Shown: piece after piece, positions 1-6,265 of the stretch
Numbering within the stretch: the first letter of the stretch is position 1
Layout: the number at the start of each line of letters is the position of its first letter
Virus record (IMG/VR): IMGVR_UViG_3300011982_000015
Span: 1 to 6,265 of that record
DNA from: a virus
Reading direction: 5' to 3' (one strand)
Length of the DNA: 6,265 nucleotides
Notes under the pieces: generated by a model
The model's input: the letters and a program-made list of their open reading frames with translations, nothing else
Told to the model about the DNA's origin: nothing
Database searches by the model: none
Position numbers and translations under genes: made by a program

Positions 1-99
1 CGATGATAGTTTCGACATTGCTACGTTTACTACTGATGTTACTATTGATGATATGTATAGTAGTTCGGATACATTGTCGGCAGACGGTCGTACAGGTGA
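1..99. repeat. Left copy of an exact 99-nt terminal direct repeat, identical to 6167-6265. This is the circular-genome overlap.
   Basis: Base-by-base comparison by eye: cgatgatagtttcgacattgctacg...cggtcgtacaggtga occurs at both window ends. The capsid reading frame is continuous across the junction. Confidence 0.97.
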
Positions 100-2183: not shown

Positions 2184-2215
2184 GTTAGGCGCAGATAATG
2201 CGCCTAACTTTATTT
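2184..2215 (+). terminator. Perfect 10-bp hairpin 7 nt after the VP2 stop. It is a probable intrinsic terminator closing the structural operon. It may instead, or additionally, be an ssDNA structural element.
   Basis: GTTAGGCGCA (2184-2193), loop GATAA, TGCGCCTAAC (2199-2208), followed by TTTATTT. Six of the ten stem pairs are G:C, in an otherwise AT-rich genome. Confidence 0.55.
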
Positions 2216-2347: not shown

Positions 2348-3715
2348 ATGAGAATAGAAAGAAAGGATTATTTTTCGTTTCGTTCTTACGTTGATATTCC
2401 AGACAATACTGTTATAAACGCGAAGATGCGCCAGGACGGTTATTTTCAGCGTCTTTGTTCATCTGTTGATACTACTTATAAGAAAGGCGGTTGTTGTTTG
2501 ATGTTGTTGCTTACTTATAATAATAATTCGTTGCCTTTTTTTTATAATCCTTTATATAAGGAGTATGCACCTGTATTTGATAGAAATCATTTGTCTACAT
2601 TTTTGAATCGTTTAAAGGTTTATTCTCGTAGACGTTGTTTGTCGGGTTATAAGTATTTTATTTGTATGGAGTATGGTGAGCATACCAAACGGCAGCATTA
2701 CCATTTAATGCTTTTTGTTTCTAATGCTTCGCAGTATCGTGAATATGTAGACCTTGTGCGTCATATTTGGTCGGATAGTTTGGATTATGGTTTCGTTTTC
2801 CCAGATAAAAAGATAGGTTCTTATGAAAAAGCCTTGATGCGCTCTAAAGACGGTGCTTCTTCTTATTGTAGTAAGTATGTTACAAAAGATGTTGCATTTA
2901 TTGGCGAACCTCGTGTTAGACGTTTGAAAGAGTATTACAGACAGTTGGTCGCTCAAGGTAAAGAAGATGATGCGTTAGCCGTCTTGCGTTTGTTTCCTCG
3001 AGTTTTTCAAAGCCAAGGTATAGGAGCAGATTTGTTGTTGCAGCTTCATTCTAACTTTAAAGAGTGTGTTGCCAAAGGCATTTTGAATCCTATTACGAAG
3101 TCTTACGCTCCTATTCCCGAATATGTCAGAAATAAGTATTTTTATAAGAGCGTGAAAGCCTTTGATGGTCGTTTAGGTAAAAGAGATAAGCCTTTGTATG
3201 ATAGAGTATTGAAAGCAGATGAAGAGCAGTATGTTTATTATCAGCTTTCAAAAATAGACAATTTGGCGTTGAAGTATTATAACATTTTGGCTTTAGATAT
3301 TAAGAGTGATTTTGACACTACTGCTTTGAAGTCGTTTTTTGCAGATATTGACGTTATGGATATTTGCCGAAAGCTTGTTATATTTCGCAATTTTTCGTCT
3401 TTGTATTCTTGTAATATGATAGATTATGTCGGTAGTTTAGATGATTTTTTTAATGTAGATGTAGTCAAGAAGTATTTACTTCTGCAGTCAGATACTTATT
3501 CACGTTTTTTAGAGCGTGGAAGACGTACTATGTACTCAAATCTTCAATCTTGCTTCACTGAATATTTTAATATATTTATACTTTTAAATAATACAATTAA
3601 ATTTCTTGATGCAAGATTAGAAAGTGAGTACGAGGAACGTTTTTTACAAGATAATAAAGCTTATGAGTTAAAAAGAGTTAATACGAGAAGATTATTTCCC
3701 CAAAACCTTTGTTAA
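2348..3715 (+). CDS. VP4: Rolling-circle replication initiation protein VP4 (phiX A-like, HUH superfamily I), 455 aa.
   Basis: Motif I LMLLLTYNN (uuTLTY type, residues 51-59). Motif II HUH is QHYHLMLFV, with H117-Y-H119 at nt 2696-2704. Motif III is SSYCSKYVTKD, with two catalytic-type tyrosines Y173 (nt 2864-2866) and Y177 (nt 2876-2878) spaced Y-x3-Y as in the phiX174 A protein. Confidence 0.92.
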   Translation: MRIERKDYFSFRSYVDIPDNTVINAKMRQDGYFQRLCSSVDTTYKKGGCCLMLLLTYNNNSLPFFYNPLYKEYAPVFDRNHLSTFLNRLKVYSRRRCLSGYKYFICMEYGEHTKRQHYHLMLFVSNASQYREYVDLVRHIWSDSLDYGFVFPDKKIGSYEKALMRSKDGASSYCSKYVTKDVAFIGEPRVRRLKEYYRQLVAQGKEDDALAVLRLFPRVFQSQGIGADLLLQLHSNFKECVAKGILNPITKSYAPIPEYVRNKYFYKSVKAFDGRLGKRDKPLYDRVLKADEEQYVYYQLSKIDNLALKYYNILALDIKSDFDTTALKSFFADIDVMDICRKLVIFRNFSSLYSCNMIDYVGSLDDFFNVDVVKKYLLLQSDTYSRFLERGRRTMYSNLQSCFTEYFNIFILLNNTIKFLDARLESEYEERFLQDNKAYELKRVNTRRLFPQNLC

Positions 3716-3738
3716 TTCAAATTTTCTTTGTACCTTTG
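3708..3738 (+). promoter_or_regulatory. Bacteroidetes-type sigma-A promoter driving the 78-aa ORF and the peptidase gene.
   Basis: -33 TTTG (3708-3711), an exact 19-nt spacer, then -7 TACCTTTG (3731-3738, matching TAnnTTTG). The ATG follows at 3765, about 20 nt downstream of the predicted transcription start. The -33 box lies in the last codons of VP4. Confidence 0.55.
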
Positions 3739-3764: not shown

Positions 3765-4001
3765 ATGGTACAGAAAGTTAAAATTTTAAAAAGTGATTTT
3801 CATTTTATGCCTATCGGTAGAGGTGCTTATAATGTTAAGTATACTTCGCCTGTTTCTCGCCGTTGGTGGATAGCTCGCATTGAAGATATGCAGCTTATAG
3901 ACGCTACAATGTACGCACCTTATGGTGAGGTGAAAGTTAAGGATTTAGAGATTTTAAAACGTAGAATTAAAGATAATTATTTCGATTGTTATGTTAAGTA
4001 A
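3765..4001 (+). CDS. Hypothetical small basic protein, 78 aa, of unknown function.
   Basis: The ORF starts 26 nt after the promoter -7 box, fills the gap between VP4 and the peptidase, and overlaps or couples with the peptidase start (ATGTTAAGTAA). I recognise no motif. Confidence 0.55.
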   Translation: MVQKVKILKSDFHFMPIGRGAYNVKYTSPVSRRWWIARIEDMQLIDATMYAPYGEVKVKDLEILKRRIKDNYFDCYVK

Positions 4002-4320
4002 GAATTTTATGTACACCGTTCACTATAAGAACGGTGTACCAGCGACAACCTTAAAAGATGTTATGCAGATGTACGTTAATATTATGGCGTATGCTCATTT
4101 TAAACTTTTTGGTAAATATATGGTCGTTACGTCTACTACAGATGGTAAGCACGGTAAAAACTCTTTACATTATAAAGGATTTGCTGTTGATATTCGCATA
4201 AATGATAAGTCCGCCGTACAGATTAATCAGTTTGTAAACTTTCTTAAGTTTCATTTTGACAAGACTTTGGACATTGTTTTAGAACAAGACCACATACACG
4301 TTGAGTATGACCCTAAATAA
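3991..4320 (+). CDS. Minimal zinc D,D- or L,D-peptidase of the LAS / peptidase M15 type, a probable peptidoglycan-degrading endolysin. It is 109 aa. An alternative in-frame start at 4009 would give 103 aa.
   Basis: An exact SxHxxGxAxD signature, S58-L-H60-Y-K-G63-F-A65-V-D67 (nt 4162-4191), which contains the Hx6D zinc ligands. An HxH motif lies near the C-terminus (H101-I-H103, nt 4291-4299). This is the pattern shared by VanY/VanX-type M15 phage endolysins. There is no N-terminal hydrophobic signal. Confidence 0.82.
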   Translation: MLSKNFMYTVHYKNGVPATTLKDVMQMYVNIMAYAHFKLFGKYMVVTSTTDGKHGKNSLHYKGFAVDIRINDKSAVQINQFVNFLKFHFDKTLDIVLEQDHIHVEYDPK

Positions 4321-4332
4321 CGTACATTATTT

Positions 4333-4347
4333 CCCCCAACCCCCCCC
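4333..4347 (+). repeat. Homopolymeric C tract C5-AA-C8, 13 nt after the peptidase stop codon.
   Basis: The sequence reads ttCCCCCaaCCCCCCCCaag. This is very atypical for this AT-rich genome. The 8-mer CAACCCCC (4337-4344) recurs at 4495-4502. Confidence 0.9.
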
Positions 4348-4427
4348 AAGAACAAACAAAAAAGAACCGAAATGGAATAAATACAAAATTAAAAAATGTT
4401 AAAACAAGCGCAGCGTTTTTAATATTT

Positions 4428-4464
4428 TTTGCATTTTTTATTTATGAAATGTAGGTTAACTTTG
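4428..4464 (+). promoter_or_regulatory. Candidate Bacteroidetes-type promoter for the structural (late) operon.
   Basis: TAACTTTG (4457-4464) matches the -7 consensus TAnnTTTG. The nearest upstream TTTG (4428-4431) sits at a non-ideal 25-nt spacing. It lies about 90 nt upstream of the first ORF of the operon (4552). Confidence 0.4.
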
Positions 4465-4551
4465 TGAGTTCTTGGAGAGTTGGAGGAAATGTAACAACCC
4501 CCACGAGTTATTAGTTTTATGTTTAATATAGTATTTTAAAATTGTTTTATT

Positions 4552-4650
4552 ATGGAAAATTTCACACCGGAGGTTATTAACGCTATCATTGCGGTAGTAA
4601 GTTTTATCATTGGTCTGTTTACCAAGACCCCTAAGAAAAGAAAGAAATAA
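4552..4650 (+). CDS. Unannotated 32-aa single-pass membrane micro-protein (MENFTPEVINAIIAVVSFIIGLFTKTPKKRKK). It is a candidate holin-like or lysis-accessory protein.
   Basis: ATG at 4552 and TAA at 4648-4650. The hydrophobic core VINAIIAVVSFIIGLF (about 16-18 residues) is followed by a strongly basic tail KTPKKRKK. The stop is only 2 nt before the next ATG (4653), so the ORF exactly fills the 5' end of the operon. It falls below the length cut-off of the ORF track. Confidence 0.45.
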   Translation: MENFTPEVINAIIAVVSFIIGLFTKTPKKRKK

Positions 4651-4937: not shown

Positions 4938-6265
4938 ATGAAGTTTAGTATAGGTATTAAAAAGCGCAAGTATAGGCACGATAGTTCCTATAACGTGAAC
5001 ACTACTTCCGATTTTGGCAGTTTTCAACCGTTAGTGTGTCAATTCTTGCGCCCTTGTGATTCTTACAATGTTAAGAATTTCACTCAATTGGTGCGTAATT
5101 CCGTTATGCCCAATCCTACGTTTGGTGCTATTTCCTGTGTGAACAAGTACAGATTTGTTCCGATGTCTGAAATATTCCCACAGTTTGACGCGTTGATTTC
5201 TGGAAAGGATATTAATTCGTACGTTATCAATTATAAGCCTACAGAAGTACCGACAGTAACTAACAGTTATTTGGTATTTATGTTGTCGCTTTTGTTTGGT
5301 CAGATGCGAGTTTGTAAATACACTTCAACGCTTGAAAAAAAGTTTGACGATAGCGGTTTTGCTCGTGAAATATTGGATTTCGCAGATAATATTTTGTCTT
5401 TTGATTTCAAGTTTTTTGTCGATATGTTCAAAAGTAAAGGTTTGGAATTTGAGGACGATAAGTCAGAGAGTTGCAAGGAAATGTTTTCAAAGTCTTTCCA
5501 CTTTGGATCGTCAAAACTTGATTTTAACAATAGCGACTTTGTGCTTAGGAATGATAAGCATATTTTGTTTATTCGCTTGAGTTCTGCAGGTAAGCGTTTG
5601 TTTAAGGTGTTTAAAGGTCTTGGTTACTCTCTTGATCCTAATTGTCAGAATAAAGTTTCAATTCTTCCGCTCTTCGCTTATTACAAGGCGTATTTTGACG
5701 CTTACTATCCTACCAGGATAAAAGGTTGGCAAAACACGTGGTGTTTTGAACTCATTAACACCATATTTGAGCAGAATTTGCAGTTTTTGAACGTCAAGGA
5801 TAGCAAGGCAGGTTTTTCGTTCCATTCGCTTATCGTCAATTTCTTCTTGCACGAGTTGGCAGAATGTTGGTACGTCTACCCCGATGATTACGTTTCGGCA
5901 AATCAGCTTAAGCCGTTGGAAACGGTACAAGACGATTTAGGCTTTGGCACTCGTGGTAATGACGGTTCGCCAGGTGGTGATTTGGGAACAGATGCACGTG
6001 AGAATATCCCTTCGCTCAATACAAAGGAAAATCCGAACGTAACGCAAGTGGCTTTGGATACTTTAGGACGTATAACTCGCTTTATGAACAAAAATTCTTT
6101 GATAGGAAATCGTATCAAGGAGTATGTAAGAGTTCATTTTGGTGAGGATATTGTTTCCGATATGTTCGATGATAGTTTCGACATTGCTACGTTTACTACT
6201 GATGTTACTATTGATGATATGTATAGTAGTTCGGATACATTGTCGGCAGACGGTCGTACAGGTGA
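4938..6265 (+). CDS. VP1: Major capsid protein VP1, N-terminal part. It is open to the end of the window and continues at position 2 after circularisation. The unique part is 4938-6166.
   Basis: My manual translation from the ATG at 4938 gives MKFSIGIKKRKYRHDSSYNVNTTSDFGSFQPLVCQFLRPCDSYNV... with no stop through 6265. The ORF track omits it, apparently because there is no in-window stop. The N-terminal pattern resembles the conserved start of Microviridae capsid proteins: a basic stretch, then DxG-x-L/Q-P, then a PGD-like segment here reading RPCDS. Confidence 0.9.
   Translation, partial: MKFSIGIKKRKYRHDSSYNVNTTSDFGSFQPLVCQFLRPCDSYNVKNFTQLVRNSVMPNPTFGAISCVNKYRFVPMSEIFPQFDALISGKDINSYVINYKPTEVPTVTNSYLVFMLSLLFGQMRVCKYTSTLEKKFDDSGFAREILDFADNILSFDFKFFVDMFKSKGLEFEDDKSESCKEMFSKSFHFGSSKLDFNNSDFVLRNDKHILFIRLSSAGKRLFKVFKGLGYSLDPNCQNKVSILPLFAYYKAYFDAYYPTRIKGWQNTWCFELINTIFEQNLQFLNVKDSKAGFSFHSLIVNFFLHELAECWYVYPDDYVSANQLKPLETVQDDLGFGTRGNDGSPGGDLGTDARENIPSLNTKENPNVTQVALDTLGRITRFMNKNSLIGNRIKEYVRVHFGEDIVSDMFDDSFDIATFTTDVTIDDMYSSSDTLSADGRTG
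6167..6265. repeat. Right copy of the exact 99-nt terminal direct repeat, identical to 1-99.
   Basis: As for the left copy. Position 6167 corresponds to position 1. Confidence 0.97.

What the first reader, a model, noticed from the sequence alone, without database searches (positions are those of the whole stretch)
3991..4320. Minimal LAS/M15 zinc peptidase (probable endolysin) encoded by a microvirus
The 109-aa product carries an exact SxHxxGxAxD block (nt 4162-4191) and a C-terminal HxH (nt 4291-4299). These form the zinc-binding core of M15-type cell-wall peptidases used as endolysins by tailed phages such as T5. The classic Microviridae (phiX174 protein E) lyse without any muralytic enzyme by blocking MraY. 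The lysis mechanism of most non-Bullavirinae microviruses is unresolved. As far as I recall, M15-like peptidases have been noted only sporadically in metagenomic microviruses and have not been characterised functionally. At about 100 aa this is close to the smallest possible catalytic domain, with no cell-wall-binding domain and no secretion signal. It also has its own good promoter (3708-3738), separate from the structural operon. That arrangement suggests an independently timed lysis module acquired horizontally.
Basis: partly seen in the sequence, partly recalled or inferred. Interest (0 to 1): 0.75.

Follow-up and report, generated by a model that had tools for sequence, protein, structure and literature searches.

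The report
Microvirus zinc cell-wall peptidase, probable endolysin
A small circular ssDNA phage of Prevotella-like human-associated bacteria encodes a 109-residue zinc cell-wall peptidase that probably bursts the host; such enzymes have been known in microviruses since 2012, but this one always travels with a conserved 32-residue membrane peptide that may let it out of the cytoplasm.

Summary
ORF 3991-4320 (+) encodes 109 aa, with SLHYKGFAVD at nt 4162-4191 and HIH at nt 4291-4299. The interpretation as a LAS-type zinc peptidase and probable endolysin holds.

- The predicted fold (pLDDT 86) matches Hedgehog N-domains and MepA.
- The putative metal and catalytic residues are invariant across 100 relatives.
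- More distant homologues in tailed-phage contigs sit directly before holin-like and spanin-like genes.

Three qualifications apply.

- It reaches neither the Peptidase_M15_3 nor the HH_signal Pfam cut-off. It belongs to a large family of ~100-aa stand-alone proteins whose nearest solved relatives are Hedgehog domains, not T5 Lys or Ply500.
- The idea is not new. Roux et al. 2012 and Kirchberger et al. 2022 proposed horizontally acquired peptidases as microvirus lysis genes.
- The element at 3708-3738 is a Bacteroidota-type promoter, not a sigma-70 one. Nothing shows that it is separate from the structural genes.

One addition: a 32-aa membrane peptide (4552-4650) co-occurs with this peptidase clade, is under purifying selection, and is absent from capsid relatives that lack the peptidase. 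It is a candidate holin. One homologue already carries an automated "holin" label. Verdict: new member of a known kind.

The parts
3991..4320 (+). LAS / Hh-DD-peptidase-type zinc peptidase, 109 aa (possibly 103 aa from ATG 4009); probable endolysin
   Evidence: ORF and motifs. Pfam HH_signal E=1.8e-4 and M15_3 E=8e-3, both below cut-off. PDB profile hits to Shh/Dhh/Ihh N-domains, E 1e-7 to 2.5e-6. AF2 model pLDDT 85.8. Foldseek to DhhN, Hh and MepA. Invariant T47 H54 S58 H60 A65 D67 R69 H101 H103 E105 in 100 relatives.
4162..4191 (+). SLHYKGFAVD block. H60 and D67 are the putative Zn ligands (H-x6-D) and align with Shh H141 and D148.
4291..4299 (+). HIH (H101, H103) aligned with Shh H181-I-H183. 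E98 just upstream is conserved in at least 90% of relatives and is a candidate general base.
4552..4650 (+). 32-aa bitopic membrane peptide MENFTPEVINAIIAVVSFIIGLFTKTPKKRKK: acidic N-end, about 18-residue hydrophobic helix, basic tail. Candidate holin-like partner of the peptidase.
   Evidence: ORF. Homologues next to the peptidase in the 16 loci listed and in prophages L098 and L177-L182; absent from 7 peptidase-less capsid relatives. dN/dS 0.10-0.20. Long variants carry an N-terminal signal-peptide-like segment. One homologue (DAK63207.1) is labelled 'holin' in nr.
3708..3738 (+). Bacteroidota-type promoter motif TTTG-N19-TACCTTTG, 27 nt upstream of the 78-aa ORF
   Evidence: It is the only full match in the window. 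Alone it is not significant (97 of 200 shuffles give at least one match). It is conserved at the same position, with a variable spacer sequence, in L001, L010 and L011, and lies upstream of the peptidase in L008.
3765..4001 (+). 78-aa ORF of unknown function, first gene after the promoter. Its stop overlaps the ATG at 3991.
   Evidence: Conserved in L001 and L010 (E 1e-13 to 1e-15) but broken into fragments in L011. No Pfam or PHROG hit. No hydrophobic segment.
4321..4551 (+). Non-coding spacer between the peptidase and the membrane-peptide gene. It contains a long imperfect hairpin (about 4323-4493) with a poly-C arm.
   Evidence: Inverted repeats I4, I5 and I9. ssDNA fold -29.8 kcal/mol, z = -4.2, 0 of 200 shuffles as stable. 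No Rfam hit. Sequence not conserved with L001, L010 or L011, which carry their own GGGGGC/GCCCCC hairpin.

Best explanation
The ORF encodes a soluble, cytoplasmically made, single-domain Zn2+ peptidase of the LAS (lysostaphin / D-Ala-D-Ala peptidase / Sonic hedgehog; Pfam clan Peptidase_MD) superfamily. It cuts a peptide bond in host peptidoglycan and so acts as the endolysin of this 6.17-kb circular microvirus.

Shown:
- The fold and the conserved H60/D67/H101/H103 site, plus H54, R69, E98 and E105.
- Purifying selection on the gene.
- Homologues sitting in holin/spanin-type cassettes of tailed phages.

Inferred:
- The protein has no export signal, so it needs a membrane lesion to reach the wall.
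- The best candidate to make that lesion is the co-inherited 32-aa N-out/C-in membrane peptide at 4552-4650, acting like a very small holin.
- Both genes lie downstream of a Bacteroidota-type promoter (3708-3738). That promoter may equally drive the downstream capsid and pilot genes.
- The host is probably a Prevotella-like member of the Bacteroidota from a human oral or mucosal site.
- The peptidase plus membrane-peptide pair moves as a unit between distantly related microviruses.
For: - Motifs at the stated coordinates, chance expectation 0.0005 per window.
- Family profiles of 14 and 100 sequences hit only Hedgehog N-domains in the PDB (E 2.5e-6 and 1.3e-7). H54, H60, D67, H101 and H103 align with Shh H135, H141, D148, H181 and H183.
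- AF2 model pLDDT 85.8, pTM 0.78. Foldseek against the PDB gives DhhN 3n1g and Hh 2ibg at probability 1.0 with TM about 0.6, and MepA 1u10 at probability 0.84-0.93.
- Foldseek against BFVD gives a microvirus protein at 44% identity and TM 0.77, and many proteins labelled 'Peptidase M15A' or 'Peptidase' from tailed phages and microviruses.
- T47, H54, S58, H60, A65, D67, R69, H101, H103 and E105 are invariant in 100 relatives.
- Peptidase dN/dS is 0.12-0.14.
- In tailed-phage contigs the homologue is followed directly by a 58-62-aa TM protein, then a ~90-aa protein with an N-terminal TM helix (embedded lipobox ORF seen in L002-L005 and L037). This is a holin plus i/o-spanin layout.
- The TM peptide lies 12-40 nt downstream of the peptidase in most microvirus relatives and prophages. 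It is present in every locus of the closest peptidase clade and in none of 7 capsid relatives that lack the peptidase. Its dN/dS is 0.10-0.20.
- The promoter motif is conserved in position in four clade members and in L008.
- A prophage carrying the pair lies in a contig of Prevotella sp. UBA5387.
Against: - There are no biochemical data for this family, and I found none for any microvirus peptidase in the searchable literature.
- The protein is below the curated Pfam cut-offs for both HH_signal (21.7 against 22.1 bits) and Peptidase_M15_3 (16.7 against 23.2 bits). It has no PHROG hit.
pLDDT falls to about 60 in residues 51-60, next to H60.
- The cleaved bond is unknown.
- The holin role of the 32-aa peptide rests on linkage, co-occurrence and topology only. 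It shows no profile similarity to the tailed-phage holin-like family (hhalign probability 1%) and only an insignificant Hol_Tox match (E=0.14).
- In this genome the two genes are separated by a 231-nt structured spacer rather than being adjacent.
- The co-occurrence sample is small, and many of its loci are close relatives of each other.
Confidence: 0.72

Rival explanations
1. The 32-aa membrane peptide, or another small protein, is the real lysis effector. It would be a single-gene lysis protein in the manner of phiX174 E or the ssRNA-phage Sgl proteins. The peptidase would be an accessory that only speeds up wall breakdown or serves another purpose.
For: Classical microviruses lyse with a small membrane protein and no muralytic enzyme (established knowledge; also Roux 2012). 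The peptide is conserved and under purifying selection. Capsid relatives without the peptidase carry small lipobox ORFs at the equivalent position. This suggests that small envelope-targeted proteins can suffice in this lineage.
Against: The peptide never appears without the peptidase in the loci examined. That fits a two-component system better than an autonomous lysis protein. The peptidase keeps every catalytic residue. Its homologues occupy the endolysin slot of tailed-phage cassettes.
Confidence: 0.12
2. The peptidase is a cell-wall enzyme used outside lysis. It might remodel peptidoglycan locally during genome entry, or during prophage life in the host. The membrane peptide would then be unrelated, for example a J-like basic packaging peptide or a superinfection-exclusion factor.
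For: The peptide's basic tail (KTPKKRKK) loosely recalls the small basic DNA-binding J proteins that sit just upstream of the capsid gene in phiX174-like phages (own knowledge). The pair is the first gene block at one end of integrated prophages, a position where lysogeny-expressed genes often lie.
Against: A free 12.7-kDa soluble protein with no capsid- or pilot-interaction domain is an unlikely virion component. The peptide has an uninterrupted ~18-residue hydrophobic helix (KD 2.5). Its long variants have a signal-peptide-like N-terminus, which points to a membrane protein and not a DNA-binding one. It is absent from capsid relatives that must still package DNA.
Confidence: 0.1
3. It is a catalytically dead LAS-fold protein, a binding module like Drosophila Hedgehog, or a spurious ORF.
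For: Best database matches are to a signalling domain. The protein is below all curated family cut-offs.
Against: Drosophila Hh has lost the H-x6-D / H-x-H motif and E177 (PMC6027127). Here all of these positions are retained and invariant or nearly so in 100 relatives. The family is very large and under purifying selection.
Confidence: 0.04

Closest known systems
M15_3 peptidases of human-associated Microviridae (Roux et al. 2012, PMC3394797) and the peptidase/amidase accessory genes of microvirus families (Kirchberger et al. 2022, PMC9239249)
   Same: A small stand-alone LAS-clan peptidase in a human-associated microvirus, acquired horizontally and proposed to be the endolysin. It is sometimes next to an unknown small ORF. 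It has been exchanged between distant microviruses.
   Different: Those proteins were recognised because they match PF08291. This one scores below that cut-off and matches HH_signal better. Its GenBank relatives are all annotated 'hypothetical protein'. A conserved membrane-peptide partner was not described in the passages I searched in those papers.
Hedgehog N-terminal signalling domain and bacterial Hh/DD-peptidases (Roelink 2018, PMC6027127)
   Same: The H-x6-D ... H-x-H zinc motif lies in a nearly identical local sequence (SLHYKGFAVDI here, SLHYEGRAVDI in Shh; HIH in both). These are the best sequence and fold matches among solved structures.
   Different: Hh and bacterial Hh domains are about 145-160 aa and have two Ca2+ sites. 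Here only the C-terminal ~75 residues align, and most Ca2+ ligand positions are not conserved (alignment). E98 is one register away from Shh E177 in the alignment. The context is phage lysis, not signalling.
Single-domain M15 endolysins of tailed phages of Gram-negative hosts (T5 Lys, ST79 M15A endolysin) and the Ply500 catalytic domain
   Same: A globular LAS zinc peptidase with no wall-binding domain, made in the cytoplasm and released by a holin. Distant family members sit in endolysin-holin-spanin cassettes.
   Different: No detectable sequence-profile similarity to any solved M15 chain, even at E<=10. None appears in the top 50 Foldseek PDB hits. At 109 aa it is shorter than T5 Lys (137 aa, own knowledge). 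Bond specificity is unknown.
Small one-helix holins and holin-like peptides (class III holins; Pfam Hol_Tox, 34-residue model)
   Same: For the 32-aa partner: one TM helix, a charged basic C-terminal tail, and a gene next to a muralytic enzyme gene.
   Different: At 31-35 aa it is far shorter than characterised holins (about 60-220 aa, own knowledge). There is no significant similarity to any holin family. Function is untested.

Membership tests
LAS metallopeptidase superfamily (Pfam clan Peptidase_MD; Hedgehog/DD-peptidase fold) | H-x(3-6)-D and H-x-H zinc-binding motifs in that order | tested here: met
   H60-x6-D67 and H101-x-H103. All four residues are invariant in 100 relatives.
LAS metallopeptidase superfamily (Pfam clan Peptidase_MD; Hedgehog/DD-peptidase fold) | Antiparallel beta-sheet with flanking helices, superposable on known LAS structures | tested here: met
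   AF2 pLDDT 85.8. Foldseek probability 1.0 to DhhN and Hh with TM about 0.6, and 0.84-0.93 to MepA. M15A-labelled viral models appear in BFVD hits.
LAS metallopeptidase superfamily (Pfam clan Peptidase_MD; Hedgehog/DD-peptidase fold) | Bound Zn2+ with His-Asp-His geometry and peptidase activity | not testable with these tools
Pfam Peptidase_M15_3 (PF08291) | Score at or above the curated gathering cut-off (23.2 bits) | tested here: not met
   16.7 bits, E=8e-3. Seven of 14 close relatives match at E<=0.05, best E 1.2e-3.
Pfam HH_signal (PF01085) | Score at or above the gathering cut-off (22.1 bits) and coverage of the ~160-residue domain | tested here: not met
   21.7 bits, covering only profile positions 101-133 of 161. 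Some relatives pass (P0016 30.7, P0039 27.1, P0019 23.3 bits), but they also cover only the C-terminal 60-70 positions.
Phage endolysin (functional class) | Muralytic enzyme gene linked to holin/spanin genes | tested here: inconclusive
   Met for distant homologues in tailed-phage contigs. In this genome the only candidate partner is the 32-aa TM peptide 231 nt downstream. No spanin-like gene was looked for or seen.
Phage endolysin (functional class) | Degrades host peptidoglycan and is required for lysis | not testable with these tools
   Needs enzyme assays and genetics.
Holin (for ORF 4552-4650) | Small membrane protein with at least one TM helix and a charged C-terminal tail, encoded beside the endolysin | tested here: met
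   KD 2.51 over 17 residues, tail KTPKKRKK. Adjacent to the peptidase in most relatives.
Holin (for ORF 4552-4650) | Homology to a described holin family, or demonstrated timed membrane permeabilisation | tested here: not met
   No significant Pfam or PHROG match. hhalign probability 1% to the tailed-phage holin-like family. Function not testable here.

The most novel reading that the evidence does not exclude
The peptidase and the 31-35-aa (or signal-peptide-bearing 57-60-aa) membrane peptide together form a minimal two-gene holin-endolysin cassette with about 430 nt of coding sequence. The cassette moves as a unit among distantly related microviruses of Prevotella-like Bacteroidota. The peptide would be among the smallest holins known. 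It would also be a documented case of ssDNA phages using canonical two-component lysis rather than a single-gene amurin.
Probability: 0.35. Interest if true: 0.65.

Novelty: new member of a known kind. Interest (0 to 1): 0.4.

Why it matters
How microviruses outside the phiX174 group lyse their hosts has not been shown experimentally. Peptidases have been the standing hypothesis since 2012. This locus adds three things. It gives a well-defined family of about 100-aa Hedgehog-like LAS peptidases that standard annotation misses; GenBank relatives are 'hypothetical' and one UniProt relative is auto-labelled 'Sonic hedgehog'. It gives a conserved candidate membrane partner. It also gives a host assignment (Prevotella-like Bacteroidota) through prophages and promoter type. 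Together these make a compact, directly testable two-gene lysis hypothesis. The peptidase could also serve as a very small enzybiotic scaffold for Gram-negative anaerobes. None of this overturns current views.

Tried and rejected
- **Embedded hydrophobic ORF 4058-4201 (+1 frame inside the peptidase gene) as an overprinted E-like lysis gene.** Rejected. No equivalent ORF exists in the 70%-identical relative L001.
- **Homology between the 32-aa peptide and the 58-62-aa holin-like proteins that follow the peptidase in tailed phages.** Rejected. hhalign probability is 1%.
- **The peptidase plus peptide pair occurring in a tailed phage (L026, a 49.7-kb contig with tail and amidase PHROG hits).** Withdrawn. 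From about position 6900 the contig is 91.6% identical to microvirus prophage L177 and continues into a microvirus Rep gene. It is therefore a microvirus integrated next to tailed-phage-like genes, or a chimeric assembly.
- **Sigma-70 promoter at 3708-3738.** Not found.
- **Rfam family in the structured spacer.** None found.
- **Link to solved M15 enzymes using a deeper 100-sequence profile.** Only Hedgehog domains were found.
- **NCBIfam.** Only a sub-threshold MepK match, 13.4 bits against a cut-off of 185.
- **PHROGs.** No match for the peptidase, the 78-aa ORF, the 90-aa ORF or the peptide.
- **Compositional sign of recent transfer.** None. The peptidase is 33% GC and the window 37%.
- **Capsid-based search of IMG/VR for a larger co-occurrence sample.** It returned only 9 loci, so the co-occurrence test is small.

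Full report
**1. The window**

The 6265-nt window carries an exact 99-nt terminal overlap, so it represents a circular genome of 6166 nt. All recognisable genes are on the + strand:
- major capsid protein, 4938 through the overlap to 799 (PHROG 514 'major head protein' E=4e-26; Pfam Phage_F sub-threshold)
- a 477-aa ORF at 744-2177 with an N-terminal hydrophobic segment, in the position of the annotated DNA pilot protein of the relative OR148990
- Rep at 2348-3715 (PF23343, E=1e-10; PHROG 942)

This is a microvirus. The closest GenBank genomes are Microvirus D_HF3_26 and D_HF32_302 from human saliva. They are about 70% identical over 48% of the query and have the same gene order: capsid, pilot, Rep, ~80-aa ORF, peptidase, ~90-aa ORF.

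**2. The observation**

ORF 3991-4320 encodes 109 aa. SLHYKGFAVD is residues 58-67 (nt 4162-4191) and HIH is residues 101-103 (nt 4291-4299), exactly as reported. The 10-residue pattern is expected 0.0005 times per shuffled window. The conserved core starts at M7 (ATG 4009), which is where the GenBank relative is annotated to start. The start could therefore be 4009, which would remove the 11-nt overlap with the upstream 78-aa ORF.

**3. What the protein is**

Against Pfam the protein matches HH_signal (E=1.8e-4; 21.7 bits, cut-off 22.1) and Peptidase_M15_3 (E=8e-3; 16.7 bits, cut-off 23.2). Both belong to the LAS/Peptidase_MD clan, and both scores are below cut-off. There is no PHROG hit. NCBIfam gives only a far-sub-threshold MepK match.

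Profiles built from 14 and from 100 family members hit only Hedgehog N-terminal domains among all PDB sequences (E=2.5e-6 and 1.3e-7). No VanX, VanY, Ply500 or T5 Lys chain appears, even at E<=10. In those alignments:
- H54 aligns with Shh H135
- H60 and D67 align with H141 and D148
- H101-I-H103 aligns with H181-I-H183

This is the 'Hh/DD-peptidase motif' H-x6-D, H-x-H as defined by Roelink 2018 (PMC6027127).

An AlphaFold2 model built on the alignment is confident (pLDDT 85.8, pTM 0.78). Its secondary structure runs beta-alpha-beta-beta-alpha-beta-beta. Foldseek results:
- PDB: Desert hedgehog 3n1g and Drosophila Hh 2ibg at probability 1.0 and TM about 0.6; the murein endopeptidase MepA at probability 0.84-0.93.
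- BFVD: a Microviridae protein at 44% identity and TM 0.77, auto-labelled 'Sonic hedgehog protein...'; and many proteins labelled 'Peptidase M15A' or 'Peptidase' from tailed phages and from marine microviruses.

An exhaustive profile search finds 5702 cluster representatives at E<=1e-3 and 3427 at E<=1e-10. Most of the 150 best are stand-alone proteins of 98-110 aa. Across 100 of them, T47, H54, S58, H60, A65, D67, R69, H101, H103 and E105 are invariant. K13, G15, G52, Y61, G63, D94, E98 and P108 are conserved in at least 90%. dN/dS against two relatives is 0.12-0.14.

The protein has no hydrophobic segment and a pI of 9.1.

I conclude it is an intact LAS-superfamily zinc peptidase from a large, poorly annotated, Hedgehog-like subfamily. 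It is not a threshold-level member of M15_3.

**4. Evidence for a lysis role**

The homologue P0011 (50% identical over the core) lies in a ~40-kb tailed-phage contig. Three genes follow it directly:
- a 62-aa one-TM protein
- a 91-aa protein with an N-terminal TM helix
- an embedded ORF with a lipobox (LLLDGC)

This is the endolysin, holin, i-spanin/o-spanin layout. In the 90 fetched loci that carry a + strand peptidase hit, 52 have a TM-containing small ORF within 600 nt downstream. The same conserved 58-aa and ~90-aa pair recurs in many tailed-phage contigs. In bacterial genomes the relatives lie mostly in diderm phyla. The best core identity (58%) is in Prevotella sp. UBA5387.

**5. A conserved membrane partner**

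The window has an unannotated 32-aa ORF at 4552-4650: MENFTPEVINAIIAVVSFIIGLFTKTPKKRKK.

An HMM of this peptide finds it in every locus of the closest peptidase clade:
- the window
- free microvirus genomes and contigs L001, L006-L008, L010-L018 and L024 (L015 seen)
- L026
- prophages L098 and L177-L182

It usually lies 12-40 nt downstream of the peptidase, whatever the gene order. In the window's clade the order is Rep, 78-aa ORF, peptidase, peptide, 90-aa ORF, capsid. In the Prevotella-prophage clade it is peptidase, peptide, Rep, capsid. The capsid proteins of these two clades are only 17% identical.

The peptide is absent from all seven capsid relatives that lack the peptidase (L090-L096). 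Four of those (L090-L093) still match the neighbouring 90-aa gene, though only weakly (E=0.003-0.26).

Its dN/dS is 0.10-0.20, with synonymous sites near saturation. The 57-60-aa variants add an N-terminal signal-peptide-like segment. Together with the basic tail, this argues for an N-out/C-in membrane protein.

Forty-two clusters of this peptide exist among 5.8 billion proteins. One of them (DAK63207.1) is already labelled 'MAG TPA: holin [Microviridae sp.]'. I found no discussion of a holin partner in the papers searched.

The peptide has no significant similarity to any Pfam or PHROG family, or to the tailed-phage holin-like family. The holin assignment is therefore an inference from linkage, co-occurrence and topology.

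**6. Promoter and transcription**

3708-3738 is the only match in the window to the Bacteroidota bipartite promoter TTTG-N17-23-TAnnTTTG. On its own this is unremarkable, since 97 of 200 shuffles give at least one match. However, the two boxes are conserved at the same place while the spacer sequence varies:
- between Rep and the 78-aa ORF in L001, L010 and L011
- after Rep and before the peptidase in L008

The sigma-70 scan finds nothing there on the + strand. No terminator-like site lies on the + strand between the peptidase and the capsid genes. The best terminator-like hairpin (2184-2208) follows the pilot gene. The element may therefore drive the whole block from the 78-aa ORF to the pilot gene. 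'Independently timed' is unproven.

**7. Horizontal acquisition**

In a rough NJ tree (no bootstrap), microvirus peptidases fall at four or more separate places among phage and bacterial sequences. All peptide-linked sequences except L008 form one cluster. This agrees with Roux 2012 and Kirchberger 2022. No compositional anomaly marks the gene.

A contig that at first seemed to place the pair in a tailed phage (L026) turned out to be a microvirus integrated beside tailed-phage-like genes.

**8. Prior knowledge**

- Roux et al. 2012 reported M15_3 peptidases in 11 human-associated microviruses. They argued for horizontal transfer and proposed an endolysin role, citing Ply500. They also noted an adjacent unknown ORF in 5 of the 11.
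- Kirchberger et al. 2022 list peptidases as lysis-associated accessory genes and document a peptidase recombining between distant families.
- Marine and rhizobial microvirus papers annotate M15 peptidases routinely.
- I found no functional test of any of them.

**9. Verdict**

The finding is a new member of a known kind. The useful increments are the Hedgehog-like subfamily assignment, the Prevotella-type host inference and the conserved 32-aa candidate holin.

Noticed in passing
window 4552-4650 (+): Unannotated 32-aa ORF encoding a one-helix membrane peptide with a basic tail. It is conserved, under purifying selection and strictly linked to the peptidase in relatives. It is a candidate holin.
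   Followed up: yes
window 4321-4551: The 231-nt non-coding spacer folds as ssDNA into a long imperfect hairpin (arms about 4323-4360 and 4461-4493, including a poly-C tract). Its z-score is -4.2 and there is no Rfam match. Relatives L001, L010 and L011 have a different GGGGGC...GCCCCC hairpin at the same place. It could be a complementary-strand origin, an attP/dif-like site or an RNA element.
   Followed up: partly
window 1-99 and 6167-6265: Exact 99-nt terminal overlap running through the capsid gene. The contig is a circular genome of 6166 nt.
   Followed up: yes
L090 3110-3268, L091 2110-2274, L092 168-371, L093 5311-5499: Capsid relatives that lack the peptidase and the TM peptide instead carry small ORFs (53-68 aa) with lipoprotein-type signal sequences (e.g. 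...VVFAC|CRTYFEG...). In L090 and L091 these lie just upstream of the 90-aa-ORF homologue. They may represent an alternative lysis strategy based on a small lipoprotein.
   Followed up: no
L098 6893-10798; L177-L182: Integrated microvirus prophages in a Prevotella sp. contig and in other bacterial contigs. The order is host genes, peptidase, TM peptide, Rep, capsid, ~150-aa ORF, pilot, 42-45-aa ORF, host genes. The integration junction therefore lies just upstream of the peptidase.
   Followed up: partly
L006 3688-3798, L007 3643-3741, L016 3853-3972, L024 870-989: A second conserved small hydrophobic ORF (32-40 aa, e.g. MNYDKFFRYFIYTAIMLYIVFAALYLIVHYLF) lies after the pilot gene in the Prevotella-type clade. 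No counterpart was seen in the window.
   Followed up: no
window 3765-4001; L011 1330-1577: The 78-aa ORF that precedes and overlaps the peptidase start is conserved in L001 and L010 but split into three fragments in L011. It may be dispensable, or L011 may contain assembly errors.
   Followed up: partly
window 2184-2208 (+): Strong terminator-like hairpin (10-bp stem with 6 GC pairs, followed by TTTATTT) immediately after the pilot gene and before Rep. It suggests one long transcription unit running from 3738 around the circle to about 2208.
   Followed up: no
BFVD A0A8S5SY19; nr DAK63207.1: Automated TPA annotations of human-metagenome Microviridae already label a homologue of the peptidase 'Sonic hedgehog protein...' and a homologue of the peptide 'holin'. 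Curated GenBank relatives call both 'hypothetical' or leave the peptide unannotated.
   Followed up: partly
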